Source: Escherichia coli (GTDB taxonomy: Bacteria > Pseudomonadota > Gammaproteobacteria > Enterobacterales > Enterobacteriaceae). Taken from it: 64,000 nucleotides of DNA. Below the pieces are notes generated by a model that was given only the letters and a program-made list of their open reading frames with translations, searched no databases and was not told the origin of the DNA. The DNA is taken from the NCBI RefSeq assembly GCF_003334305.1, contig NZ_QOWS01000017.1; one strand, 5' to 3'. Position numbers and translations under genes: made by a program. Positions within the stretch are counted from its first letter, which is position 1. Each line of letters starts with the position of its first letter. Shown here piece by piece: positions 1-21,877 of the stretch.

Positions 1-52
1 AGTTAATGCAACCGGCACGGAATGCAGTCATCTGTCACAGGGAGGAAAGCAA

Positions 53-373
53 ATGAAAACCCCCTTACCGCCCGTCTTACGCGCAGCCCTTTACCGTCGC
101 GCTGTCGCCTGTGCCTGGCTGACCGTGTGCGAACGTCAGCACCGCTACCCGCATCTCACCCTTGAATCACTGGAGGCGGCCATCGCCGCTGAGCTGGAAG
201 GCTTTTATCTGCGCCAGCACGGTGAGGAAAAAGGGCGTCAGATAGCCTGTGCCCTGCTGGAAGATTTAATGGAATCCGGCCCCCTGAAGGCCGCGCCGTC
301 GCTGTCCTTTCTCGGGCTGGTTGTGATGGATGAACTCTGTGCCCGTCACATAAAAGCGCCGGTACTGCACTGA
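53..373 (+). CDS. hypothetical protein, P4-like satellite early region (106 aa)
   Basis: ORF with GGAGG RBS a few nt upstream of ATG; co-directional with and 15 bp upstream of the alpha-type primase gene; no motif recognised. Confidence 0.5.
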
Positions 374-387
374 AGGAGAACAACACC

Positions 388-2721
388 ATGAAAATGAACG
401 TAACCGCCACCGTCAGCCATGCACTCGGCCACTGGCCGCGTATTCTCCCGGCGCTGGGGATTCAGGTGCTGAAAAACCGTCATCAGCCCTGTCCGGTCTG
501 TGGCGGGAGTGACCGCTTCCGTTTTGATGACAGGGAGGGGCGCGGCACCTGGTACTGCAATCAGTGTGGTGCCGGTGACGGCCTGAAACTGGTTGAAAAG
601 GTGTTTGGTGTTTCCCCGTCCGACGCGGCCGCAAAGGTGGCTGCCGTGACCGGCAGCCTGCCACCGGCTGACCCGGCAGTGACGGCCGCCGCCGTTGCTG
701 AAACAGACGCTGCCCGGAAGAACGCCGCCACACTGGCACAAACCCTGATGGCGAAAACCCGTACCGGAACCGGTAACGCCTACCTGACCCGCAAGGGCTT
801 TCCCGGCCGGGAATGCCGGATGCTGACCGGCACACACAGAGCCGGTGGCGTGAGCTGGCGCGCCGGTGACCTTGTGGTGCCACTGTATGACGACAGCGGC
901 GAACTGGTTAACCTTCAGTTAATCAGTGCTGACGGCCGTAAGCGCACCCTGAAAGGCGGACAGGTCAGGGGCACCTGTCACACCCTTGAAGGACAGAATC
1001 AGGCCGGAAAACGTCTGTGGATAGCGGAGGGATACGCGACCGCACTTACCGTACATCACCTGACCGGTGAAACGGTGATGGTGGCGCTTTCTTCCGTGAA
1101 CCTCCTTTCTCTGGCCAGCCTTGCCCGGCAGAAGCATCCGGCCTGTCAGATTGTCCTTGCCGCAGACCGTGACCTCAGCGGTGACGGCCAGAAAAAAGCC
1201 GCCGCAGCCGCAGATGCGTGTGAGGGCGTTGTTGCCCTGCCGCCGGTCTTCGGTGACTGGAATGATGCCTTCACGCAGTACGGCGGGGAGGCCACCCGTA
1301 AGGCCATTTACGATGCCATCCGGCCACCGGCTGAAAGCCCGTTCGACACCATGAGCGAAGCAGAGTTTTCCGCCATGAGTACCAGCGAAAAGGCCATGCG
1401 TATCTATGAGCATTACGGTGAGGCGCTCGCGGTCGATGCCAACGGCCAGCTTCTGTCTCGCTATGAAAATGGTGTCTGGAAGGTGCTGCCGCCACAGGAC
1501 TTTGCCCGGGATGTGGCCGGGCTGTTTCAGCGTCTGCGCGCGCCGTTCTCCTCCGGGAAGGTGGCCTCCGTGGTGGACACCCTGAAGCTGATTATTCCGC
1601 AGCAGGAAGCCCCCTCCCGCCGCCTGATTGGCTTTCGTAACGGTGTGCTCGACACACAGAACGGCACGTTCCACCCGCACAGTCCGTCACACTGGATGCG
1701 CACCCTGTGCGATGTGGATTTCACCCCGCCGGTGGACGGTGAAACGCTGGAGACCCACGCCCCCGCGTTCTGGCGCTGGCTTGACCGTGCCGCCGGTGGC
1801 CGTGCGGAAAAACGCGACGTGATTCTGGCCGCACTGTTTATGGTGCTGGCAAACCGCTATGACTGGCAGCTCTTTCTGGAGGTGACCGGTCCCGGCGGCA
1901 GCGGCAAAAGTATCATGGCCGAAATAGCCACCCTGCTGGCCGGGGAGGATAACGCCACGTCGGCCACCATTGAGACGCTGGAATCCCCGCGTGAACGTGC
2001 CGCGTTAACTGGCTTCTCACTGATACGCCTGCCGGACCAGGAAAAATGGAGCGGCGACGGTGCCGGACTCAAGGCCATCACCGGCGGCGATGCGGTGTCC
2101 GTTGACCCGAAATACCGGGATGCATACTCCACGCATATCCCGGCGGTGATTCTGGCCGTGAACAATAACCCGATGCGCTTCACCGACCGCAGCGGCGGCG
2201 TGTCACGCCGGCGGGTGATTATTCACTTCCCGGAACAGATAGCCCCGCAGGAGCGCGACCCGCAGCTTAAGGACAAAATCACCCGCGAGCTGGCGGTCAT
2301 CGTGCGTCACCTGATGCAGAAGTTCAGCGACCCGATGCTCGCCCGGTCACTGCTTCAGTCCCAGCAGAACTCAGACGAGGCGCTGAACATCAAACGGGAT
2401 GCCGACCCGACGTTTGATTTTATCGGCTATCTGGAAACCCTGCCGCAGACCAGCGGCATGTATATGGGGAACGCCAGTATCATCCCGCGTAATTACCGTA
2501 AATACCTCTATCACGCCTATCTGGCCTACATGGAGGCAAACGGCTACCGGAATGTACTCAGTCTGAAAATGTTCGGGCTGGGGCTGCCGGTGATGCTGAA
2601 GGAATACGGACTGAATTACGAGAAGCGCCATACCAAACAGGGGATACAGACCAACCTGACGCTGAAAGAGGAAAGCTACGGCGACTGGCTGCCAAAATGT
2701 GACGACCCTGCAACAACCTGA
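388..2721 (+). CDS. P4 alpha-type bifunctional primase/helicase
   Basis: 777-aa ORF with AAGGAG RBS; N-terminal zinc ribbon CPVCGG...YCNQCG; Walker A GPGGSGKS at about aa 500; architecture and length match satellite phage P4 alpha as I recall it. Confidence 0.9.
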   Translation: MKMNVTATVSHALGHWPRILPALGIQVLKNRHQPCPVCGGSDRFRFDDREGRGTWYCNQCGAGDGLKLVEKVFGVSPSDAAAKVAAVTGSLPPADPAVTAAAVAETDAARKNAATLAQTLMAKTRTGTGNAYLTRKGFPGRECRMLTGTHRAGGVSWRAGDLVVPLYDDSGELVNLQLISADGRKRTLKGGQVRGTCHTLEGQNQAGKRLWIAEGYATALTVHHLTGETVMVALSSVNLLSLASLARQKHPACQIVLAADRDLSGDGQKKAAAAADACEGVVALPPVFGDWNDAFTQYGGEATRKAIYDAIRPPAESPFDTMSEAEFSAMSTSEKAMRIYEHYGEALAVDANGQLLSRYENGVWKVLPPQDFARDVAGLFQRLRAPFSSGKVASVVDTLKLIIPQQEAPSRRLIGFRNGVLDTQNGTFHPHSPSHWMRTLCDVDFTPPVDGETLETHAPAFWRWLDRAAGGRAEKRDVILAALFMVLANRYDWQLFLEVTGPGGSGKSIMAEIATLLAGEDNATSATIETLESPRERAALTGFSLIRLPDQEKWSGDGAGLKAITGGDAVSVDPKYRDAYSTHIPAVILAVNNNPMRFTDRSGGVSRRRVIIHFPEQIAPQERDPQLKDKITRELAVIVRHLMQKFSDPMLARSLLQSQQNSDEALNIKRDADPTFDFIGYLETLPQTSGMYMGNASIIPRNYRKYLYHAYLAYMEANGYRNVLSLKMFGLGLPVMLKEYGLNYEKRHTKQGIQTNLTLKEESYGDWLPKCDDPATT

Positions 2722-2728
2722 CCCACCT

Positions 2729-2754
2729 GACCGGCATCTGCCGGTCTTTTTTTA
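2729..2754 (+). terminator. rho-independent terminator after primase gene
   Basis: GACCGGC-atct-GCCGGTC hairpin followed by T7 run, 8 bp after the stop codon. Confidence 0.65.
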
Positions 2755-2770
2755 TCCCTGAATTCCCCGA

Positions 2771-3070
2771 AGGTGAACAATCCACTGTTCACCCTTCACC
2801 GTATATTCACCCGTTATCACACTGAAATTAAAAGAGAAAAACGAAAGGTGAACAGTGTGAACAATCAAATCAAAAAAAACTTTTTTCTTCCTGAGTGATT
2901 TCAGCACGGGAAATTAATCCCCTGCACAAGTCACACCGGCAGAATGCCGGAGGTGAAGAATCGAATGTTCACCCTTCACCCATTATTCACCACCTATCCA
3001 ACTGAAATAAAAGGAGAAAACAGAAAGGTGAACAGTGTGAACAGTTCTTTCGAAAAAAAATTTTTTTCTT
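2771..3070. repeat. crr-like replication region: two ~120-bp direct repeats carrying TGTTCACC/GGTGAACA octamers
   Basis: Units at 2771-2890 and 2951-3070 (period 180 bp) align nearly base for base; each has at least three copies of the P4 type I iteron octamer in both orientations and ends in an A8/T8 tract. Confidence 0.75.
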
Positions 3071-3184
3071 ATTTTTAATTGTGCGAAAAACAAGCGACAC
3101 ACGCAGTGTGTATAGATATGTGTATAGTTATATTTTTTGAATATTATAATGTATTACAAATCAATGTGTTAGCTTGTAATATTC

Positions 3185-3203
3185 ACTCCTATTATCGGCA
3201 CCA
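3185..3203 (+). other. att core copy (tRNA-Thr 3'-end-like, ACTCCTATTATCGGCACCA)
   Basis: 19-nt string matching the T-arm-to-CCA end of thrW as I recall it; no full tRNA upstream; second copy at 15262-15279. Confidence 0.6.
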
Positions 3204-3808
3204 TCAAGAAAATCAATAACTTAGCTTAACTTCTCTAAGAAATTGTATCTTCTGTTATCACTTACAAACGCCTATACGTTGTTATGGGCTTTGGTAGTGT
3301 AACACGTATGGGCGAGTAGTTCCCAGGCTCAACCTCGTAACAAGTTCCTTTGAAGCTGGAAGACGTGCCACCGTCTCTAAACCTTCTACCAAAACTCTTA
3401 GCAAGATGTTCCACACCTGGCGCGGTGTCCAATGATGCTACACGTCGTGAGACGTTGCAGAGGATAAACAGGCTAAATGATGGGAAGAGTTTTAAGTGCA
3501 ATAGTGGATTAAAGCCCACCTCTTCAAAACCTAACTTGATCGGGAAAGAATCAAGCTCTAGCACGGTTTCGTCCACCGGAGTACAACGGGTGCCTGATAA
3601 GAGAAGAACTGCTAAGACTTCATAGCTTTTGTGAAAAAGCCCTTTTTAGTGGATACGCCTACGGCGCTTATTTTTTGGTATAACCATCAAAGGCGCTTTA
3701 TGGCTCCTATTGTCTTGAAAATGTATCTTTACTTGTATTGTGTTTTATGCGTAGTCTCCCTGTGTAGTATGTAACTTGTTAATTTTCATATGAATACAGA
3801 GGCACACG

Positions 3809-3967
3809 ATGAAAAACATTGCAGCTATCAAACGGAATAACCGCAAGATTCACGCTCGTAAGTTCCTGTCTACGCCAGAAGGAAAAGCCTGGCTAGAGCG
3901 TAAACAGAGAGAAAACGAAGAAAGAAAACTCCTTAGTGAGTTGAAATGGCTTAGAGAGGATTTCTGA
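3809..3967 (+). CDS. small basic protein (52 aa), hypothetical
   Basis: ATG with AGAGG-like RBS; Lys/Arg-rich; below the size cut-off of the ORF track; translated by hand. Confidence 0.3.
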   Translation: MKNIAAIKRNNRKIHARKFLSTPEGKAWLERKQRENEERKLLSELKWLREDF

Positions 3968-4260
3968 AAATCTCCAGAACGCAACAGGACGCATTCTAAC
4001 GCTGTTTTCATTACTCGGTATAGGGATTATAGGTGATGTGTGTTTAATGCGTCTGTGAGCTTGTTTTGTGCCTTATTTTGCATTTTCATAATGCAGGAGA
4101 GAACACGGAAAGCCTTAAAATTAATTATTGGGGTATTTAAGGCTATTTTTAGGTTATTTAAGGGTATTAAACTTGATTTAATTGATTGAAATATAAACAG
4201 ATAATTATGTATCTTATTGATTTATAAGGTTATTTTTAAATAAAGGTAAATAAAAAATAA

Positions 4261-4300
4261 ATAGCCATAAATAGCTATAAATACATCTAAATACCTATAT
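4261..4300. repeat. four tandem 10-bp A-rich units (ATAGCCATAA / ATAGCTATAA / ATACATCTAA / ATACCTATAT)
   Basis: Read directly; 10-bp period equals the helical repeat, suggesting bent DNA or a phased binding site. Confidence 0.6.
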
Positions 4301-4713
4301 CCCTTCCCTTATGGCTAGATTGCGAGAAGTGCTTAACGCGATTTTCAGCGCCCCCCGATCTGGAAAATCCAGAATCCCCAAATATCAGCAAGGAATTTTC
4401 TTGCGTAATCAACATCGTTTTTACCTATTAAATCATTACACAGAAAGCCTTTCTGTAATGTCTCTCACTAAACTTTCACTAAACACGAGAATGATCGGTT
4501 TTATGTCGGATCAGATGCTAGAAATAGCACCACGTCTCACAAGGGCTGTAAGCGATGAAACCAGTGTTTATGCGGGTGCAGGTCAAAATATAGGCCAAAA
4601 TACATTTAACATAATAAACGTAATATGCACTAAGGAACACATAGAACGCCTTGAGTTGATGTATCAGGGGAAAAGTGGTGGATTTTTTACGTAGGAGCAC
4701 GAGAGGGCTTCTA

Positions 4714-4741
4714 TTGACTTTTGTATGCTATGAAATATAAT
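4714..4741 (+). promoter_or_regulatory. candidate sigma70 promoter (TTGACT-16-TATAAT)
   Basis: Consensus-like hexamers with 16-bp spacer; no convincing ORF downstream, so it may drive a non-coding transcript through the repeat region. Confidence 0.35.
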
Positions 4742-5088
4742 AGAAGGTTTTTTTATGTTGATAGTGATTGCACATTAAAGATTGAAAGCAAATTTAAACA
4801 TAAATTTTCAACACGTGAAAGAGAACTTGTTCGACAAATGATAAAACGTTTATTGAGCAACAATTTTGCAGTGATGCGCTATATGCCGAATTACACAAGG
4901 CTTTGCGAAAGTGATGTAAAAGTGAAGAAAGTAAGAATTGCAACTTTAAGCTACTTTTCATTGAATTTTTTAGTATGGAATTACACAGGAATAAGTTAGG
5001 GATATTCTATGATTTACACAGGGAATATAGGGGGATTATGGCACACACATAGAAAGACATTACACAAAGTGCTATGTGACAAATGGAT

Positions 5089-5300
5089 GTAACGAGAGGT
5101 TACATTCAGCTATCTGAAATGCTCTCTGTAAGAAAGTTGGTAGTAACGATATGTTACATAGACTAATTATTGAATGTAACGATATTACACATCGGTAGTA
5201 ACGATACGTTACATCGACTAATTATTGAATGTAACGATATTACACATCGGTAGTAACGATACGTTACATCGACAGATGATTGGATGTAACGAAAGGTTAC
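5089..5300. repeat. array of seven 15-bp palindromic sites GTAACGA(t/a)A(t/c)GTTAC (iteron/operator/centromere-like)
   Basis: Sites start at 5089, 5143, 5176, 5198, 5231, 5253 and 5286; spacings 54/33/22/33/22/33 bp are all near multiples of 11 bp; includes a 56-bp unit repeated in tandem. Confidence 0.8.
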
Positions 5301-6398
5301 ACAATAAGACTATATTATTTATAATACTAAATAAAACTATATTAGATTATTAATTAGATCATAATAATATTCTTTATATCTATATATATGATCTTTTGCC
5401 TTCCGGCGTTAGCTTCACTCCCTGGCAAGCAGCCTTACTCCGCTACCTTTCGGGCTACGTTGGCTGGCCCGTTCCGCTCACACCGAAAGCAAAGCGTTAC
5501 TTTCTTCGTGTAACTATCGTGGCGGTAACGCCCACGAAGAAATACTATTGCGCTGTGCGCAGAAGAGTAATCACCTAACCAATCATAGATTGCTTATGTG
5601 TTAACTCTCTCTACCTCTTAATTCCACTTCCTACATTTAATAACTCTGTTATTCTCTGTAGTTGTGTAATTACTCGAAGAGAGAGCGGCTAAAGCTCAAT
5701 TACACTCTGCTTTCCTCGTGTAAGTTCACTAAGCCTCAATACAATTTCACTTCCTACATTCTGTAGTCGTGTAATTGTTTTCGGTGGAAAAGCCAGAGGC
5801 GACACCGAAAGAGAATTCTGATCTTATTAATCTTATCTATCTTAGTTAATCTTCTTACTTTATCTACTTTATTATTAATAATAGCTTTATAAGCTCTGTG
5901 TAGCTCTCTGACGCAAGAAACAGCATTCAGGAAGGGAATCACCTTAGAAAAGGTGTTCTTTGCGTCATAATGTGTTTTATGAAGGATTCAGAGGTGTTTC
6001 ATAACAGGAATGTATAGAGGATATTTTAATTAATTAAAAATAAGGGGTCTAAATGCTTCTCTAACAACATTAAGCAGGGTAGGGAATGGAAACGCATTGC
6101 CTACATATAATAAGCTCACTACAGGGCTTTACAGAGCGTTTTATAAAGTGACTCTCTGTTTTATATTTACCATTACCTTTTCATATACCTAACAAATACA
6201 AAATAAGCCCCTTCAATAAGCCTCTGGCGAGCGAAACAGCCATTAGATAAGGGAATGTATTGCTTTTATCAAAATCTCGTCAGAATGCGATTGAGAGTGT
6301 TTTAGCGGATAATGAAGAATAGCACTACATAGAAGAGCACGAATTGTTAAGCAAAATCATAACATACTGAAAAAGATCAGTTTTTTTGTGAAAAGGTA

Positions 6399-6427
6399 TT
6401 GACAAACGTCTCTTTCTGTGCAATAAT
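6399..6427 (+). promoter_or_regulatory. candidate sigma70 promoter (TTGACA-17-AATAAT) for the cargo operon
   Basis: Consensus -35 and near-consensus -10; about 125 nt upstream of the first RBS-preceded ORF, with a hairpin-rich leader. Confidence 0.5.
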
Positions 6428-6554
6428 AGGTATTAGAGGGGACAGGAATAGATTCTTATCCTCTAAATAATTAAACCAATGCACCGCACTTTGAAGCCCA
6501 AGAGGCTTGCAAGGTGTTTTTTCTTTTAACCAAATCGAATAAGGAGGCTAATTA

Positions 6555-9247: not shown

Positions 9248-9460
9248 ATGTTGTTTTTAAACGATAAAGAGCAAATCATCAAGTATAAAGATGAAATGCT
9301 GAAAATTAATCCACAAATTACCGAAATGGTAGCTAAATACGCTGGGTGTTCTGTCGAGGAAGTAGAAAGATGTGTTGAAAAATATTTTTCTCCTTCTACT
9401 CCGTCTACACCTTCCCTTAATGAATTAATCAAATTAAAAGCTAAGGAGATTACTAAATGA
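9248..9460 (+). CDS. hypothetical protein (70 aa)
   Basis: ATG with AAGG upstream; stop overlaps the start of the next gene (ATGA). Confidence 0.5.
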   Translation: MLFLNDKEQIIKYKDEMLKINPQITEMVAKYAGCSVEEVERCVEKYFSPSTPSTPSLNELIKLKAKEITK

Positions 9461-9819
9461 TTATTGATTTAGACACTCTGTTTCCAGTTAGAAAGACTTT
9501 CACAGATATTGTAAGTTATTGTACTGATCCGTTTGCCTCTGTAGAAAGCAAGGTTTTTGCTTCTCTTCCTGCTGATGTTGAGTGCGGCGACTTGATCACC
9601 AGTACTGGCGCTAAATATGAATCAGGAGATGATATCTATGTTGTTATGAGTGAATTTGTAACGGCTGGAGAAAACAAGCCTGTAGATGTGCTACGTAGTA
9701 ATGCTGGTCTTGTCTGCATCAAAGCTGATGCGCTGAATGCTGTAAGTGAAGCAGCAAAAACAGCATTAATTAAAAAAGGCTTCCAGCTTGAAGGGTTCCA
9801 TTCTGTTTTCACTTCTTAA
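9457..9819 (+). CDS. hypothetical protein (120 aa)
   Basis: AAGGAG RBS; translationally coupled to the upstream ORF. Confidence 0.55.
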   Translation: MIIDLDTLFPVRKTFTDIVSYCTDPFASVESKVFASLPADVECGDLITSTGAKYESGDDIYVVMSEFVTAGENKPVDVLRSNAGLVCIKADALNAVSEAAKTALIKKGFQLEGFHSVFTS

Positions 9820-9837
9820 TAAAAGGAATAATAATAA

Positions 9838-10869
9838 ATGATTCTAGGTAATGATTACGTTGATTTAGCTCCGCTTTTCCAGGCACACAGCACTAGAAAC
9901 TTTCTGCTCTCTACCCTCGACTTCACTGATCCGGTGGGCGTTAGTTCTCATAAAGTAGCTGTTTCTCAGCTTGTCGAAAGCAACGAATCTCTGTTCAACA
10001 AAGAAACCTCTCGTTTCTCTTCTGAACACAATGTTACTAAGCGTGAACAAGGTAAAGAATGGCTGATTGAAATCCCGTATTTTCTTCGTGAAGATGTGAT
10101 CCGTCCTTCTGATGTTCAAGGCAAGCGTAAGCCTGGCACTGATTTTCAGGAAACACTCACTGATATCTATGCGGAATATATCGCTAAACACCACGTAGCG
10201 TATCAGCGTACAAAAGAGAGCGTGTTGGCTGCATCTCTGTTTAGCGGTAAAACTTACACGCCTAAAACTGATGATGTTCTTATCGAGTGGGGCAAGCTGT
10301 TTAACGTGGCACCTATGAAAGCCACCTTGAACGCTTCCAGCACTGACACAATGACCGTTTTCAAGCAATTTGACCAGCTTGCTACGGATATGATTGCTAA
10401 GGCACAAAACCAGGCTGCAACCATTGAGCGTGTTGTTGTGTTCTGTAAACCTGCGGCATTCAACGCTATTCGTTACAGTGTTGGTATGGTCAATGCTTTC
10501 CAATATGCAAGCCCTGTAGACGATGCCAACGTGGTGTTTAATGTGCGTTCCCTGCTACCAGGTGTAACTACTTTCACCATTCCAGGAACTAACATTGACC
10601 TGATCAAAGTGACTGATCCGCTACACCTTGCACATATGGCTTCTGATGCGGTTGCTGTGCCTAAATTCGCTAAGGGGGCAGGTGTTTACCAATCTATCTA
10701 TGGGGCAGCTTCCAGCACCTTTGAACTGATCAATGCCGCTCCTGCTGAGGTGTATAGCTATAGCTATGAATCTTCTTCTCGTGGTGATGCTGTTAACGTT
10801 GTTACAGAGAATAGCCAGATGGTGGTAAACCACGGCGTTGGTTTCTCCGTTCAAATCACTGTTAAATAA
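9838..10869 (+). CDS. hypothetical protein (343 aa), no motif recognised
   Basis: Long ORF in AT-rich DNA with AAGGA RBS; followed by a strong terminator. Confidence 0.65.
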   Translation: MILGNDYVDLAPLFQAHSTRNFLLSTLDFTDPVGVSSHKVAVSQLVESNESLFNKETSRFSSEHNVTKREQGKEWLIEIPYFLREDVIRPSDVQGKRKPGTDFQETLTDIYAEYIAKHHVAYQRTKESVLAASLFSGKTYTPKTDDVLIEWGKLFNVAPMKATLNASSTDTMTVFKQFDQLATDMIAKAQNQAATIERVVVFCKPAAFNAIRYSVGMVNAFQYASPVDDANVVFNVRSLLPGVTTFTIPGTNIDLIKVTDPLHLAHMASDAVAVPKFAKGAGVYQSIYGAASSTFELINAAPAEVYSYSYESSSRGDAVNVVTENSQMVVNHGVGFSVQITVK

Positions 10870-10887
10870 TATTTTAACGTGTAATAG

Positions 10888-10925
10888 AGGCGTGGCGTGA
10901 ATAACACGCTTCGCCTTTTTTTATT
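10888..10925 (+). terminator. rho-independent terminator
   Basis: Nested hairpin AGGCG-tg-GCGTG-aataa-CACGC-tt-CGCCT followed by a T-rich run. Confidence 0.65.
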
Positions 10926-10955
10926 TATTTTTAAATTTTGAGAGGTGATTAAAAT

Positions 10956-11159
10956 ATGGAAGTGATTCTGAAATCAAAAAATGGTGTACACGTTTATTTA
11001 GATGCTAATGATTCAAGAGGCTTGTTAAATCTGAAATATCTATGTTCTCTCTTGGATGTTCCATATGAAGGCGTAAAAGCCCGAATGTTCAGATTAAACG
11101 AGAGTATTGATCAAGCTCTACACCATTTCTTAAGCAAAGAAGGTGGTAAAAATGATTAA
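10956..11159 (+). CDS. hypothetical protein (67 aa)
   Basis: GAGAGGTGA RBS; 15 bp upstream of the 612-aa gene. Confidence 0.45.
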   Translation: MEVILKSKNGVHVYLDANDSRGLLNLKYLCSLLDVPYEGVKARMFRLNESIDQALHHFLSKEGGKND

Positions 11160-11173
11160 TAAGGGGATTTTAA

Positions 11174-13012
11174 ATGTTAGAAATTAACACTTCTAAAATT
11201 AAGAACACAGTAACATTTAGTGTAGATAAAGACAGCTTGAAAAAAGCGAAAGACTCTATTACAGGCTTAAAGGAATTCACAGAAAACATCAAGCCAGCTA
11301 AATTAAGGTTTGATAGTGTCACTAAAGGCTATAAGAAAGCACAAAGCGAAGTAGACAAGATTGCTCAACAGAAAGCTAAAACAGAAAAGCAGAATCAAAG
11401 AGCACAAGCTGCCGCAGCAAGAGCACAGGCAAGGCAACAGACACAAATAGCAGCACGTAAAGAGAAAGCAGAATTAAAGCTCCTCGATGTGTCAAGCTCT
11501 ATCAGTGCAATGCACCGCCTCTCTGTAGCGGAACAATACAAAGCTATTGCACAGGCTAGAGAGATAGCAAAACAATATGAGCAAGGGGCTATCTCGCTTG
11601 CACGTATGAATAGTCAGATGAAACGCCTACAACAGCAACAACGTAAGATTAATGGCAACAGAAAAGCTCAATTAGCCCCCGTTAAGGGAGGAGGATCAGG
11701 GAATTCCGCCACGATGGGTGCTCTGTTATTTGGAGGCGCTACAGCGGCTGCTGGCGTGATGGCTGTTAGTAAAGCGTCGGAGTTTGTTAGTAACAGTTTC
11801 GCTAACGCAGAGACACAAGGTGAGCTAATTCAACGTGCAAGGCTTGGCGGTGTAGACGTTAACCAGATGTACAACATTACAGAATGGGCCTATAGAAACG
11901 GCGTTGACTCTATGATGGGTGATCAAGGGGCTAGGAAATACCTGGATCAGATGAAAGATGTTAGGGAACGTGCCGCAAAATCCTATAGTGAAGCTGAATA
12001 TGTAGTCGATAAAAAAACTGGTAAAGGCGGCGAATGGAAAGGCGGTGATAACGCTATTAATGAACTTCTAAACATCGGTGTTATTAACAAGAGCGACCTT
12101 AAAAAATTTGCTGATAATCCAGCCGGATTAATTTCTAAGGCTGTTAATGGAATGATGAAAAAAGGGTTTTCAGACTCCCAAATTGGACAACGTTTAGAAG
12201 ACCTGGGTGATGATTTGATGCTTACATCAAAATATTGGCAACGTTCCGTTAAAGATGTACAAACAAGCATCGAGCAGCAAAAAGCCTCTGGAAAATGGCT
12301 AACAGAAACACAGCAAGATTCTATTGTTAAATTCAGAGAACTAAACAGACAGCTTTCACAGCTTTCTGATGCAAGACAAGTAGCATTTGTAGACGGCTTT
12401 ATGAAATCTCTCGATCCAAAAGTAACGGAAGAGTTTATGAAAAACCTTTCTAATCTCACTCCGTATTTTACAAAGCTGGGAGAAGCTACAGGAAGTCTCT
12501 TTGAAGCTATTATGAAGATTGTAAACTGGTTTAATCGTAATGATGATAAGACAGATGCTATTCAGAAAAATTTAGGTGATGCACCGCCATTAAGCAATGA
12601 AGGAATGAAACAGAATCTTTCTAATCTCGTTCCTGATCAATATAAAGGCGCTGGCACCGGAACAACTAAGCCAGATAACAGCAATTCCCTGTTTAACACT
12701 ATTAAGGGATTGCTTTTCGATGATAAGTCTTCTTCTGTGTCAGATGTAAAAATGTCAGTCAGCGAAGCACCGATAACCAATCTCAAACAGGGCGCTTTAA
12801 ATAATCTTGCAATGACAACTCCGGCTTATAATTTATCTCCTGTGTTTAATCTGAATCCTACATTTGAAGTGGTAACAGAGGTTCCTCTTACTATTAATTC
12901 TGACACATCAAGATTAAGCGATTATGTGGATTTTACAGCGAGATCAAGTCGGGATAGCTTCTTGAAATCATTAACATTAACCAGCTTATCAGGACAATCT
13001 AACGGCGGGTAA
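11174..13012 (+). CDS. large coiled-coil protein with central Gly-rich hydrophobic segment (612 aa); tape-measure-like or membrane-interacting, function unknown
   Basis: AAGGGG RBS; N-terminal approx. 150 aa rich in Q/A/R/K/E; segment GGGSGNSATMGALLFGGATAAAGVMAV; no NTP-binding or catalytic motif seen. Confidence 0.7.
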   Translation: MLEINTSKIKNTVTFSVDKDSLKKAKDSITGLKEFTENIKPAKLRFDSVTKGYKKAQSEVDKIAQQKAKTEKQNQRAQAAAARAQARQQTQIAARKEKAELKLLDVSSSISAMHRLSVAEQYKAIAQAREIAKQYEQGAISLARMNSQMKRLQQQQRKINGNRKAQLAPVKGGGSGNSATMGALLFGGATAAAGVMAVSKASEFVSNSFANAETQGELIQRARLGGVDVNQMYNITEWAYRNGVDSMMGDQGARKYLDQMKDVRERAAKSYSEAEYVVDKKTGKGGEWKGGDNAINELLNIGVINKSDLKKFADNPAGLISKAVNGMMKKGFSDSQIGQRLEDLGDDLMLTSKYWQRSVKDVQTSIEQQKASGKWLTETQQDSIVKFRELNRQLSQLSDARQVAFVDGFMKSLDPKVTEEFMKNLSNLTPYFTKLGEATGSLFEAIMKIVNWFNRNDDKTDAIQKNLGDAPPLSNEGMKQNLSNLVPDQYKGAGTGTTKPDNSNSLFNTIKGLLFDDKSSSVSDVKMSVSEAPITNLKQGALNNLAMTTPAYNLSPVFNLNPTFEVVTEVPLTINSDTSRLSDYVDFTARSSRDSFLKSLTLTSLSGQSNGG

Positions 13013-13046
13013 TTCCCGCCATAACATTACAAGGAAAATTATTATT

Positions 13047-13760
13047 ATGGCGACCGCCGGGATTTTAACCATACGTGCAGCAAATACTCCAGAACAACAC
13101 GTTCAGGCTGTTTACAAAGCAGAACAAGATATAAATTCTACAAAAAACGAAAATAGCAAAGCTAATAAAACAAAAGGAGAGAACGGATTTGCTATTGTTA
13201 CCAGTGGCTTGGCATCTTCTGGCAATGACGTTTATGAAAATTATATGGCCCTGGCCTTTGACAGTGTAGACGATGTGAACGTGAGACGTTCGGCAGATGT
13301 CACAAGCTACCCCGTAGAAAATGGTGCTACTGTGTCTGATCACGTTCAAATTAAAAACAATAAGTTTTCTCTTAAAGGAAGGATCACTGAAACACCGATT
13401 AAAAGCGATCCTGGCTTGTTAAAGAGTGCAGGGGTGAACGGGAACAGAAGATCATTAGCCATAGACTACTTGAATCAGATTATGGACAGTAGACAGCCTT
13501 TTCTTCTTGTTACAGAAAATAAAACTTTTGAGAACGTTGTTTTAACAGGCATCGAATACACAGAAGAGGCAAGCGAATCCCTGGTATTTGATCTTAGCTT
13601 TGAGCAGATCAGATTAGTTTCTTATGGCACTGTATCCACTATTGCACTTAAAACACAACCATCTAAGAACATCGGGGCGAATATGAAAAAACGTGTTAAC
13701 ACTGAAAAATCAAGTAGTGAAGGTGAAGACACTATTACTCCTGCCTTTAAGCAGAAATAG
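13047..13760 (+). CDS. hypothetical protein (237 aa)
   Basis: AAGGA RBS; last gene of the + strand operon, convergent with the integrase. Confidence 0.6.
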   Translation: MATAGILTIRAANTPEQHVQAVYKAEQDINSTKNENSKANKTKGENGFAIVTSGLASSGNDVYENYMALAFDSVDDVNVRRSADVTSYPVENGATVSDHVQIKNNKFSLKGRITETPIKSDPGLLKSAGVNGNRRSLAIDYLNQIMDSRQPFLLVTENKTFENVVLTGIEYTEEASESLVFDLSFEQIRLVSYGTVSTIALKTQPSKNIGANMKKRVNTEKSSSEGEDTITPAFKQK

Positions 13761-15218: not shown

Positions 15219-15279
15219 GGTCGTAGGTGATGGCATTAACACGAGATTAATCGAGTGTTTTACTCCTATTATCGCACCA
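15219..15279 (+). pseudogene. tRNA-Thr 3'-half remnant (ptwF-like) containing the right att core copy
   Basis: GGTCGTAGGT, then a 33-nt unrelated insert, then ACTCCTATTATCG-CACCA; not a foldable tRNA. Confidence 0.55.
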
Positions 15280-15405
15280 TTAAAATCAAAGAGTTACCCC
15301 ATATTTAAATACACCACGTTTCCTCCTGTGCCGCATTTGTGCCATTGTAACCTTGGCAATTCATCAAAATACTGTTCTGACATCAGGCAGTGCAGGTGCA
15401 GCTAT

Positions 15406-21630: not shown

Positions 21631-21644
21631 TGCATTGAATGATA

Positions 21645-21672
21645 AAAATGGCGCAAATACAGCGCCATTTTT
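21645..21672 (+). terminator. rho-independent terminator after yagU
   Basis: GGCGC-aaataca-GCGCC hairpin followed by ATTTTTA. Confidence 0.55.
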
Positions 21673-21877
21673 ATAGGTTAAAAACATTGCTTTTTATATT
21701 CTGATGCAGATAGTCAGTGAGTATATCGCGCTACTTCAGGATGATGTAGATCCGAAGAACGCTACAGAAGAGAGGCATTGTTGCTGGCAAATAGAAGAAG
21801 TATCGGGTTTTGTTACCCCTGAAAAACGAAGCCCCGCTATTATCGCTGGCGGGGCATTGCAATTAATTATTGTATGT

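What the first reader, a model, noticed from the sequence alone, without database searches (positions are those of the whole stretch)
3240..3700. GC-rich ~400-bp island in an AT-rich non-coding stretch: possible structured RNA
Immediately after the left att core the sequence jumps to ~50% GC with many short inverted repeats, then ends near a weak hairpin plus T-run (3651-3676). The two overlapping track ORFs here (3262-3576 minus, 3350-3625 plus) start with GTG/TTG and have no RBS. A non-coding RNA, such as a satellite immunity or regulatory RNA, or a degraded gene are both possible.
Basis: inference. Interest (0 to 1): 0.4.

Follow-up and report, generated by a model that had tools for sequence, protein, structure and literature searches.

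The report
New large structured RNA beside tRNA
The GC-rich patch is a gene for a previously uncatalogued ~450-nucleotide folded RNA that, with a tiny conserved basic protein, marks the tRNA-side end of a family of satellite/defence islands in E. coli and related gut bacteria; what it does is unknown.

Summary
Window 3240-3700 is a GC-enriched (44.7%, against 28-33% in the flanks), gene-free block just inside the left att core of a ~12 kb AT-rich integrative element.

It is not a degraded gene. Both ORFs acquire stop codons in a 97%-identical relative and have no protein-family match.

It is the + strand gene of a large structured RNA, about 3260-3715, with the conserved block spanning 3241-3739. 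The evidence:
- Across 54 non-redundant homologues, 116 predicted pairs are 94.6% canonical, against 34-42% in slid controls.
- 45 of those pairs show changes on both sides.
- A covariance model of the core domain gives 98% pairing, with 31 of 47 pairs doubly changed, and recovers unseeded Pantoea and Erwinia copies.
- G·U outnumbers A·C 584 to 92, and GNRA loops appear on the + strand only, which fixes the strand.

No Rfam 15 family matches.

The RNA always lies 60-100 nt downstream of, and co-oriented with, a tRNA gene or its att fragment (Thr-CGU, Leu-CAA or Gly-CCC). It is usually followed by a conserved ~50-aa basic two-helix protein, then by variable, often defence, cargo.

Its function is inferred only. 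My best guess is a promoter-proximal RNA-protein module controlling island expression.

The parts
3186..3206 (+). attL core of the ~12 kb element. It is a copy of the 3' end of tRNA-Thr (thrW). Here it is shared with the upstream P4-like satellite.
   Evidence: An exact 16-mer lies at 3188-3203. The same sequence ends thrW in L002 and L004. The attR copy lies at 15261-15285.
3244..3251 (+). Upstream copy of a lineage-specific direct repeat (TGTATCTT) that brackets the RNA. It contains a -10-like TATCTT 8 nt before a conserved CA at 3259-3260.
   Evidence: The repeat occurs on both flanks, with different sequence in each lineage: TTGTAACTT in one, TTATCAGTGA in another (alignment). Its role is unknown; it could be an integrase arm site, an operator or a promoter.
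3260..3715 (+). The structured RNA gene. The ends are approximate, about +/-10 nt at the 5' end and +/-25 nt at the 3' end.
   Evidence: - nhmmer places the family at 3241-3739.
- 116 consensus pairs are 94.6% canonical, against 34-42% in slid controls, and 45 pairs show changes on both sides.
- G·U outnumbers A·C 584 to 92.
3269..3314 (+). 5' hairpin (helix 1), 16 bp.
   Evidence: 8 of the 16 pairs show changes on both sides. For example GCCUAUACG/CGUAUGGGC in the window is replaced by GCCACUGUG/CACAGUGGC elsewhere.
3326..3357 (+). Helix 5 (GGCUCAA/UUGAAGCU). It encloses a variable-length insertion site: short here, a ~20-nt GAAA-capped hairpin in other lineages, and ~70 nt in Pantoea-type copies.
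   Evidence: Alignments; pair counts.
3358..3378 (+). Helix 6 hairpin (GGAAGACG...CGUCUCU).
   Evidence: GACG/CGUC here is replaced by GAGU/ACUC elsewhere.
3392..3622 (+). Core domain, closed by the long-range helices 7 (3396-3403 with 3610-3617) and 8 (3407-3412 with 3601-3607). It contains:
- helix 9 (3413-3428);
- helices 11/12, with a GUGA loop (3436-3459);
- helix 15 (3536-3554);
- helices 16/17 (3562-3596);
- the invariant single-stranded stretches AUAAACAGGC, UGGGAAGA, GCUCU and CCUGAUAAGAG.
   Evidence: Covariance model R1 scores 180.7 bits, E 7e-46, on the + strand only. In the 59-sequence model alignment, pairing is 98.0% and 31 of 47 pairs show changes on both sides, against 6-10 in slid controls.
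3488..3530 (+). Lineage-specific extra hairpin inserted in the loop of helix 14. It is absent from about 89% of the non-redundant homologues.
   Evidence: Gap profile; alignment.
3626..3639 (+). Helix 19: a short stem capped by a GNRA tetraloop (CUUUU-GUGA-AAAAG).
   Evidence: All 5 pairs show changes on both sides, for example UCCCU-GCGA-AGGGA in other lineages.
3649..3715 (+). 3' region. It contains the weak hairpin plus U-run (about 3656-3676), a second hairpin, and a conserved UAUGGCUCCUAUUGUCU tail. The structure here is tentative.
   Evidence: The lineages align poorly in this region. Helices 20 and 21 and the long-range AGUAG/CUAUU pairing lack covariation support. The terminator scan makes no call here.
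3722..3729 (+). Downstream copy of the bracketing direct repeat TGTATCTT.
3809..3967 (+). p52, a conserved 52-aa basic protein with the invariant motif KRNNRKIHARKFLxTPEGxAWL. It is the likely partner of the RNA.
   Evidence: - It follows the RNA in about 46 of 56 non-redundant homologues.
- It is 66-82% identical across lineages whose capsids are only 24-53% identical.
- It is predicted to form a two-helix hairpin, pLDDT 89.
- It has no Pfam, PHROG or NCBIfam match.
3262..3576 (-). Mechanical ORF of 104 aa with a GTG start. It is not a gene.
   Evidence: It has stop codons in the 97%-identical relative L145 and is fragmented in all other lineages. It has no PHROG match. PGAP does not annotate it in any genome inspected.
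3350..3625 (+). Mechanical ORF of 91 aa with a TTG start. It is not a gene.
   Evidence: It has 3 stop codons in L145 and is fragmented elsewhere. It has no PHROG match.

Best explanation
**Shown.**
- Window ~3260-3715 (+ strand) encodes a large RNA of ~450 nt here and 420-560 nt in relatives. It has a conserved multi-helix fold: a 5' hairpin, a variable-insert helix, and a core domain closed by two long-range helices. It carries several GNRA-capped stems and invariant single-stranded junctions.
- With the ~50-aa basic two-helix protein p52 encoded ~90 nt downstream, it forms the most conserved module of a diverse family of integrase-bearing islands in Enterobacterales. These islands are satellite-like, with capsid genes, and/or carry defence cargo.
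- The module always sits at the tRNA-proximal end of the island. It lies 60-100 nt after a tRNA gene or its att fragment, on the same strand, and ahead of the variable cargo and the remaining + strand genes.

**Inferred.**
- The RNA is the first thing transcribed into the island. Transcription starts either by read-through from the host tRNA promoter (no consensus promoter or terminator intervenes) or from a weak promoter of its own.
- The RNA works together with p52 as a leader-type ribonucleoprotein that engages conserved host machinery, most plausibly the transcription elongation complex.
- In that role it decides how much transcription or expression proceeds into the island. It would act as an insulation/antitermination or RNA-based immunity switch, analogous in logic to phage lambda nutL-N or to the untranslated immunity leader of satellite P4.
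For: **Structure**
- 12-sequence alignment: 81 pairs, 96.3% paired against 36-39% in slid controls, 31 pairs doubly changed against 3-7.
- 54-sequence alignment: 116 pairs, 94.6% paired against 34-42%, 45 pairs doubly changed against 12-17, and 0 of 500 shuffles reach the observed values.
- Core covariance model: 98.0% paired, 31 of 47 pairs doubly changed.
- Sequences not in the seed score 224 bits (Pantoea), 180 bits (Erwinia), and 53, 37 and 28 bits for divergent copies.

**Strand**
- G·U outnumbers A·C 584 to 92.
- The alifold energy is -67.9 on the plus strand against -57.0 on the minus strand.
- GNRA loops appear only when the + strand is read.

**Not coding**.

**Context**
- A tRNA or an att fragment lies upstream, co-oriented, in 48 of 56 non-redundant homologues.
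- p52 follows the RNA in about 46 of 56.
- p52 is the best-conserved protein of the family.
- The p52 family is narrow and confined to Enterobacterales.
- All element genes except the integrase are on the + strand, downstream of the RNA, and there is no divergent repressor gene.
- No sigma-70-like promoter or terminator was called between tRNA and RNA, or between RNA and p52, in four lineages.
- Cargo immediately downstream is variable and often defensive.

**Prevalence**: 630 of 5426 complete E. coli genomes have a match.
Against: - No expression data were available, so transcription, RNA ends and the RNA-p52 interaction are all inferred.
- The fold, with more than 100 bp and conserved junctions, is far more elaborate than any known nut, put or EAR antitermination element or the P4 CI RNA.
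- No canonical intrinsic terminator follows the RNA. The U-run after helix 20 is not conserved in the Pantoea-type lineage.
- p52 has no detectable similarity to N proteins or to any known family.
- Some islands break the pairing. L003 has the full RNA but a different 99-aa protein, and L006 has a miniaturised RNA and no p52.
- Cargo genes are not always co-oriented with the RNA.
- In this window a P4-like satellite separates the RNA from thrW. tRNA read-through therefore cannot be its only source of transcription.
Confidence: 0.45

Rival explanations
1. A free-standing, stable trans-acting RNA or ribonucleoprotein, possibly a ribozyme or an RNA scaffold/decoy in the manner of GOLLD, ROOL or OLE. 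It would be released from the tRNA co-transcript by normal tRNA 3' processing. It would act on a conserved host or helper-phage target (tRNA, ribosome, RNA polymerase or a nuclease) rather than on transcription of its own island.
For: - The fold is complex: 15 or more helices, several GNRA loops and invariant junction sequences, as is typical of ribozymes and RNP scaffolds.
- The RNA and p52 are far more conserved than the rest of the island, and across islands with unrelated cargo and different integrases. This suggests a conserved, non-island target.
- The RNA is constantly adjacent to a tRNA gene.
- Precedent, from my own knowledge rather than tested here: GOLLD and ROOL are large prophage-borne RNAs often found next to tRNA genes.
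Against: - No similarity to any known ribozyme or large RNA family.
- No defined 3' end or terminator.
- No expression or processing data.
- No self-cleaving motif was recognised.
- A T-box-like UGGN pairing with the tRNA NCCA end fits one lineage but not the window lineage (my own inspection).
Confidence: 0.35
2. A passive 3' trailer or insulator. The folded RNA would simply replace the tRNA's lost native trailer and terminator after integration. It would ensure correct tRNA 3' maturation and stop or slow tRNA-promoter read-through, with no further function.
For: - It sits directly after the reconstituted tRNA 3' end in every lineage.
- No promoter was called upstream.
- A hairpin plus pyrimidine/U-rich tract lies near the 3' end in most lineages.
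Against: - A simple terminator of ~30 nt would be enough. Purifying selection on more than 100 base pairs and on invariant junctions is not explained.
- The U-tract is not conserved in all lineages, and the scan calls no terminator.
- The RNA is retained where a second element separates it from the tRNA, as in this window.
- The tight linkage to p52 is unexplained.
Confidence: 0.1
3. A DNA-level element rather than an RNA. It could be the P' arm of attP, with integrase, IHF and excisionase binding sites. It could also be a packaging site or a single-strand DNA origin whose hairpins form in DNA.
For: - It lies immediately beside the att core.
- Lineage-specific 8-10-nt direct repeats, which look like protein-binding sites, bracket it.
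Against: - Integrases and cores differ between lineages (thrW, leuX, tRNA-Gly), yet the block is conserved.
- Substitutions preserve base pairing rather than sequence.
- G·U tolerance is strongly strand-asymmetric.
- The loops are GNRA tetraloops.
- Variable-length hairpin insertions occur at fixed sites.
- The element carries a Rep-type initiator gene and an iteron array elsewhere.
Confidence: 0.04
4. A protein-coding gene or its decayed remnant, corresponding to one of the two overlapping ORFs.
For: ORFs of 104 and 91 codons exist in the window.
Against: - Both ORFs contain stop codons in a 97%-identical relative, and their reading frames are broken in every other lineage.
- Indels are not multiples of three.
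- Neither ORF has a PHROG match.
- Neither is annotated in any RefSeq genome inspected.
- A decaying pseudogene would not show compensatory base-pair changes.
Confidence: 0.01

Closest known systems
GOLLD and ROOL RNAs (large ornate prophage-associated RNAs; Rfam families)
   Same: All are several hundred nucleotides long, fold into many helices and are carried by prophage-like elements. They are frequently found next to tRNA genes and have unknown biochemical function. These properties of GOLLD and ROOL come from my own knowledge of the literature and were not tested here.
   Different: - No covariance-model match to them or to any of the 4227 Rfam families.
- This RNA is found in Enterobacterales.
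- It sits beside the host tRNA gene used as the attachment site, rather than beside phage tRNA arrays.
- It is coupled to a dedicated ~50-aa protein.
Satellite P4 immunity leader / CI RNA (Rfam C4 antisense RNA family)
   Same: - Both belong to satellite-type elements without an obvious protein repressor.
- Both involve an untranslated, promoter-proximal RNA region ahead of the element's main operon.
   Different: - CI is ~70 nt and acts by pairing with the repeated seqA/seqC sites.
- Here the RNA is ~450 nt with a single complex fold.
- There is no Rfam match.
- No seqA/B/C-type repeats were identified.
Phage lambda nutL-N processive antitermination module
   Same: - The gene order matches: a leader RNA element is followed directly by a small, very basic protein gene at the start of a long operon.
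- Both have hairpins with GNRA-type loops.
- An invariant GCUCU recalls the boxA core.
   Different: - nut sites are ~50 nt.
- p52 (52 aa, two helices) has no detectable similarity to N.
- The boxA resemblance covers 5 nt only and lies in a predicted helix.
- There is no evidence of terminators to be overridden.
tRNA 3' external transcribed spacers with a function (e.g. E. coli 3'ETS-leuZ)
   Same: Both would be functional RNAs made as the downstream part of a tRNA primary transcript, if the read-through model is right.
   Different: The 3'ETS is a short, largely unstructured sponge of host origin. This RNA is a large folded molecule brought in by a mobile element.
ColE1 RNA II with Rom/Rop
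   Same: Both pair a ~500-nt folded RNA with a ~50-60-aa helical-hairpin protein encoded nearby.
   Different: - No sequence or fold match. Foldseek finds no PDB relative of p52.
- No antisense partner is seen.
- The element carries a Rep-type initiator gene and an iteron array elsewhere.

Membership tests
Any Rfam 15 family, including GOLLD, ROOL, OLE, HEARO, RNase P, tmRNA, group I/II introns, C4/CI and 6S | A covariance-model match at or near the family's gathering score. | tested here: not met
   - No hit within 3240-3700 at gathering thresholds.
- None at E<=10 in a 1.7-kb search.
- None at E<=0.1 in five divergent loci, where only the adjacent tRNAs were found.
Conserved structured RNA (generic) | Base pairs are maintained by compensatory substitutions well above controls. 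| tested here: met
   - Full-length alignment: 94.6% paired against 34-42% in slid controls, and 45 doubly changed pairs against 12-17.
- Core-domain model alignment: 98.0% paired, and 31 of 47 pairs doubly changed against 6-10.
- 0 of 500 shuffles reach the observed values.
- Caveat: the shuffle and slide controls are not formal probabilities, and the alignment is fitted to the model.
Protein-coding gene | An open reading frame conserved among homologues, or homology to known proteins. | tested here: not met
   Stop codons and frame breaks appear in close and distant homologues. There is no PHROG match.
tRNA / tmRNA | A cloverleaf or tRNA-like domain detectable by ARAGORN. | tested here: not met
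   ARAGORN finds no gene in the window. In the relatives, only the upstream host tRNA is found.
Intrinsic terminator at the 3' end | A G+C-rich stem of at least 5 bp followed by a U-run. | tested here: not met
   The scan makes no + strand call in the window, L004, L049 or L163. The window has only a 4-bp stem plus U6 at about 3656-3676.
Lambda-type N/nut module | A boxA (CGCUCUUA-like) plus a boxB hairpin, and an N-family protein with an arginine-rich motif and Nus/RNAP-binding regions. | tested here: inconclusive
   - Only a GCUCU pentamer and GNRA-loop hairpins are present.
- p52 is basic but matches no Pfam, PDB or PHROG family.
- Functional antitermination cannot be tested with these tools.
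P4 CI-type RNA immunity | A short processed RNA complementary to repeated target sites in the same leader. | tested here: not met
   There is no C4/CI model hit. No such repeat system is evident in the alignments. Processing cannot be tested here.
Phage satellite (the host element, not the RNA) | A small integrative element with an integrase and a replication initiator, some virion genes, and no complete virion or packaging set. | tested here: inconclusive
   - The element spans about 12.1 kb between the att copies.
- It encodes a tyrosine integrase, an O-like replication initiator, a capsid E-like protein and a phi92 gp134-like protein.
- No portal or terminase was recognised.
- Helper dependence is not testable here. 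Some RNA-bearing relatives look like defence islands without capsid genes.

The most novel reading that the evidence does not exclude
The RNA and p52 form a new ribonucleoprotein machine, possibly catalytic. It would be fed by host tRNA-gene transcription and would act on a conserved host component such as RNA polymerase, tRNA or the ribosome. Through that action it would sense or control the state of satellite/defence islands. It would be a new functional class of large bacterial RNA, present in about one in nine sequenced E. coli strains.
Probability: 0.25. Interest if true: 0.9.

Novelty: categorically new. Interest (0 to 1): 0.78.

Why it matters
Large, intricately folded bacterial RNAs are rare. 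Each one characterised so far (RNase P, tmRNA, group I/II introns, the IscB guide RNA) has revealed new biochemistry.

This one sits unannotated in about 12% of complete E. coli genomes. It is also found in Klebsiella, Enterobacter, Citrobacter, Pantoea and Erwinia. All of these organisms are easy to manipulate genetically.

It is the most conserved feature of a family of tRNA-integrating islands that carry capsid genes and anti-phage defence cargo. It is tightly linked to an uncharacterised 50-aa protein.

If it controls island expression or mobility, it is a new regulatory principle for satellites and defence islands. If it acts in trans, it may be a new RNP or ribozyme.

In practical terms, it supplies a new Rfam-type family and a marker for the left boundary of these islands.

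Tried and rejected
1. **Genome-collection scan.** The 15-base pattern was too unspecific. Longer patterns on the viral and metagenome collections then supplied the diversity.
2. **Single-sequence folding.** It gave no signal and was not used as evidence.
3. **Resemblance of p52 to ribosomal protein bL34.** phmmer E-values were about 1. The resemblance disappeared with a family profile and in Pfam, so I dropped it.
4. **Foldseek on the p52 model.** It found nothing in the PDB, so a Rom/Rop-like assignment is unsupported.
5. **Ideas checked by eye or by counting on the alignment, then dropped.**
   - T-box-like UGGN pairing with the tRNA NCCA end: the window lineage has UGGC against an A discriminator.
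   - CsrA sponge: 7 GGA motifs in 455 nt, which is the chance expectation.
   - RNase P-like or group I-like conserved motifs: only short word matches and no covariance-model hit.
   - An RNA segment specifying the target tRNA: the 5' hairpin sequence does not track the tRNA identity.
6. **Identity with O157 prophages Sp1/CP-933H at thrW.** Sakai Sp1 is a different, lambda-like remnant.
7. **Literature searches.** I searched for a prior description of the RNA, of p52 accessions or of the element and found none. The library is incomplete, so prior description cannot be excluded.
8. **Phage and plasmid databases.** The phage database has no homologue. The two plasmid-database hits are a mislabelled chromosome and one plasmid copy.
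9. **Long-range pairings.** AGUAG/CUAUU and CCA/UGG, and the 3' helices 20 and 21, were predicted but lack covariation support. I treat them as tentative.

Full report
**Context.** The window is Escherichia coli and is 100% identical to strain A7 over this region.
- Positions 1 to about 3180 are the right end of a P4-like satellite, with an alpha primase-helicase at 388-2721 followed by repeat-rich ori/crr-like DNA.
- At 3186-3206 lies a copy of the 3' end of tRNA-Thr (thrW).
- A second, AT-rich element of about 12.1 kb runs from that core to a second core copy at 15261-15285.
- This second element encodes an O-like replication initiator, gpD/gpE-like head proteins (PF03864), a 612-aa protein related to phage phi92 gp134, and a 237-aa protein. 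It also encodes a tyrosine integrase, the only gene on the minus strand.
- In most carrier strains this second element sits directly after thrW.

**Observation check.**
- The block 3240-3700 is 44.7% GC, peaking at 48.5%. The flanks are 28-33% and the whole element averages 38.7%.
- The two ORFs and the weak hairpin plus T-run exist as described, but the terminator scan does not call the hairpin.
- PGAP leaves the block unannotated in every RefSeq genome I inspected.

**Conservation.**
- 630 of 5426 complete E. coli genomes carry a match.
- Divergent copies, 66-94% identical, align only over about 3243-3715. They lie in the same place and orientation behind other tRNA genes: leuX, a tRNA-Gly gene and variant thrW islands.
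- Pattern scans of viral and metagenome collections, plus a few genome hits, raised the set to 55 clusters at 98.5% identity.
- Column conservation and nhmmer delimit the family to window 3241-3739, with a single copy in the window.

**Not coding.**
- Both ORFs pick up stop codons in a 97%-identical relative, and their frames are broken in all other lineages.
- Insertions of about 14, 20, 45 and 70 nt occur at fixed points.
- Neither ORF matches a PHROG family.

**Structure.**
- RNAalifold on 12 sequences predicts 81 pairs. Of these cells, 96.3% are canonical against 36-39% when partners are slid by 1-3 columns, and 31 pairs are changed on both sides against 3-7.
- On 54 non-redundant sequences it predicts 116 pairs in 21 helices. 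Pairing is 94.6% against 34-42%, and 45 pairs are changed on both sides against 12-17. Doubly changed cells number 436 against 21-58, and 0 of 500 shuffles reach the observed values.
- The best-supported helices are:
  - the 5' hairpin;
  - the two long-range helices that close the core (window 3396-3412 with 3601-3617);
  - hairpins 9, 12, 15, 17 and 19.
- A covariance model of the core hits the window only on the + strand, at 3392-3622 with 180.7 bits.
- The same model finds sequences that were not in its seed: Pantoea at 224 bits, Erwinia at 180 bits, and three divergent copies at 53, 37 and 28 bits.
- The model-based alignment of 59 sequences is 98.0% paired, with 31 of 47 pairs changed on both sides. 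That alignment is fitted to the model, so it leans towards it.
- The 3' 70 nt and two predicted long-range pairings are not supported by covariation and stay tentative.

**Strand.**
- In the predicted pairs G·U outnumbers A·C 584 to 92.
- The consensus fold is better on the + strand, -67.9 against -57.0 kcal/mol and 82 against 67 pairs.
- The capping loops read as GNRA (GUGA, GAGA, GCGA, GAAA) only on the + strand.
- This is also the strand of the upstream tRNA and of all downstream element genes.

**Known families.** No Rfam 15 family matches, whether at gathering thresholds, at E<=10 on a short region, or at E<=0.1 in five divergent loci. ARAGORN finds no tRNA-like gene, and the phage database has no homologue. 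Literature searches found no description, but the library is incomplete.

**Genomic grammar.**
- In 48 of 56 non-redundant loci, a co-oriented tRNA or its att fragment ends 34-75 nt before my trimmed start. Complete genes are tRNA-Thr(CGU) in 21 loci, tRNA-Leu(CAA) in 12 and tRNA-Gly(CCC) in 1; 14 more loci have only a tRNA 3' fragment.
- In about 46 of 56 loci, a ~50-aa ORF with good Shine-Dalgarno spacing follows 40-64 nt after the trimmed end.
- This protein, p52 (window 3809-3967), carries the invariant motif KRNNRKIHARKFLxTPEGxAWL.
- It stays 66-82% identical across lineages whose capsids are 24-53% identical and whose other proteins are often undetectable.
- It is predicted to form two helices, pLDDT 89, and has no Pfam, NCBIfam, PHROG, PDB or Foldseek relative.
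- The family is small: 194 clusters at 90% identity and 43 at 50% identity among 1.84 billion representatives. All named members come from Enterobacterales.
- Directly downstream comes variable cargo, often defensive: Eco29kI and XcyI restriction-modification systems, a type IIG enzyme, and SIR2 and TIR proteins.
- Exceptions show modular evolution:
  - L005 keeps the core domain but has an unrelated 5' domain.
  - L006 keeps the 5' domain and helix 7 but has a miniature core and no p52.
  - L003 and L005 carry a different 99-aa lysine-rich ORF.
- Lineage-specific 8-10-nt direct repeats bracket the RNA. Their role is unexplained.

**Mechanism (inference).**
- No sigma-70 consensus promoter or terminator is called between tRNA and RNA, or between RNA and p52, in four lineages. 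This fits read-through from the tRNA promoter.
- On the other hand, -10-like hexamers lie 8 nt before a conserved CA at 3259-3260. In this window a P4-like element also separates the RNA from thrW. An own promoter therefore cannot be excluded.
- Three facts together point to a target that is conserved host machinery:
  - the RNA-p52 pair is the first unit of an otherwise single-strand gene array;
  - there is no divergent repressor gene;
  - the pair is conserved across islands with different integrases and cargo.
- I therefore favour a leader-type RNP that gates transcription or expression entering the island, following the logic of lambda nutL-N or of P4's RNA immunity.
- The elaborate fold argues almost as strongly for a free-standing RNP or ribozyme acting in trans.
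- A passive trailer/terminator, a DNA-level att arm or origin, and a decayed gene are each contradicted by the covariation, by the strand asymmetry or by the ORF analysis.

**Verdict.** The RNA appears to be a new class. Its existence, strand, core fold and genomic grammar are shown here. Its ends, expression and function are not.

Noticed in passing
window 1-3180: This is the right end of a P4-like satellite. It has an alpha primase-helicase at 388-2721, then two ~120-150-bp direct repeats rich in TGAACAGTGTGAACA at about 2760-2880 and 2935-3060, which look like crr/ori. It lies in tandem with the second element on the same thrW att core.
   Followed up: partly
window 3809-3967 (p52) and relatives: An orphan ~50-aa basic two-helix protein is conserved more strongly than any other island protein and is always next to the RNA. 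It has no family assignment anywhere. A weak bL34-like phmmer hit was not confirmed with a family profile.
   Followed up: yes
window 3244-3251 and 3722-3729; L004, L163 groups: Lineage-specific 8-10-nt direct repeats bracket the RNA gene: TGTATCTT, TTGTAACTT or TTATCAGTGA. They may be integrase arm-type sites placed unusually far (~540 bp) from the core, or operators or promoter elements.
   Followed up: partly
window 3968-6550: This 2.6-kb stretch has no annotated gene in the identical RefSeq genome. It contains AT-rich short tandem repeats at 4124-4165 and an array of seven 21-nt GTAACG-N5-GTTAC units at 5084-5301, organised as three 55-nt super-repeats. The array is probably made of iterons or operators.
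   Followed up: partly
window 5385-5575: A second GC-rich patch (about 51% GC) lies inside the gene-free stretch. Its folding z-scores are about -2 on both strands. The held homologues are 94-97% identical, so covariation could not be tested. It might be another RNA or a small gene.
   Followed up: partly
window 9457-13760: The element encodes gpD-like and gpE-like head proteins, a 612-aa protein related to phage phi92 gp134 (PDB 21vq_V) and a 237-aa tail-fibre/endolysin-like protein. No portal or terminase was recognised. This gene set looks like an uncharacterised satellite type.
   Followed up: partly
L006, L276, L277, L281 (relatives): The slot immediately after the RNA-p52 module holds anti-phage cargo: Eco29kI and XcyI restriction-modification systems, a type IIG enzyme, and SIR2 and TIR-domain proteins. 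The module therefore marks the edge of a defence-gene hotspot at leuX and thrW.
   Followed up: partly
window 21636-21835: A full-length match to Rfam IS009 (202 bits, + strand). This is the only Rfam hit in the 64-kb window.
   Followed up: no
window 15261-15285: The right att copy has a 1-nt deletion relative to the left core (TCCTATTATC-GCACCA). The integrase start codon lies only ~55 bp from it, so the integrase's upstream region would be completed by the RNA-side DNA after excision.
   Followed up: no
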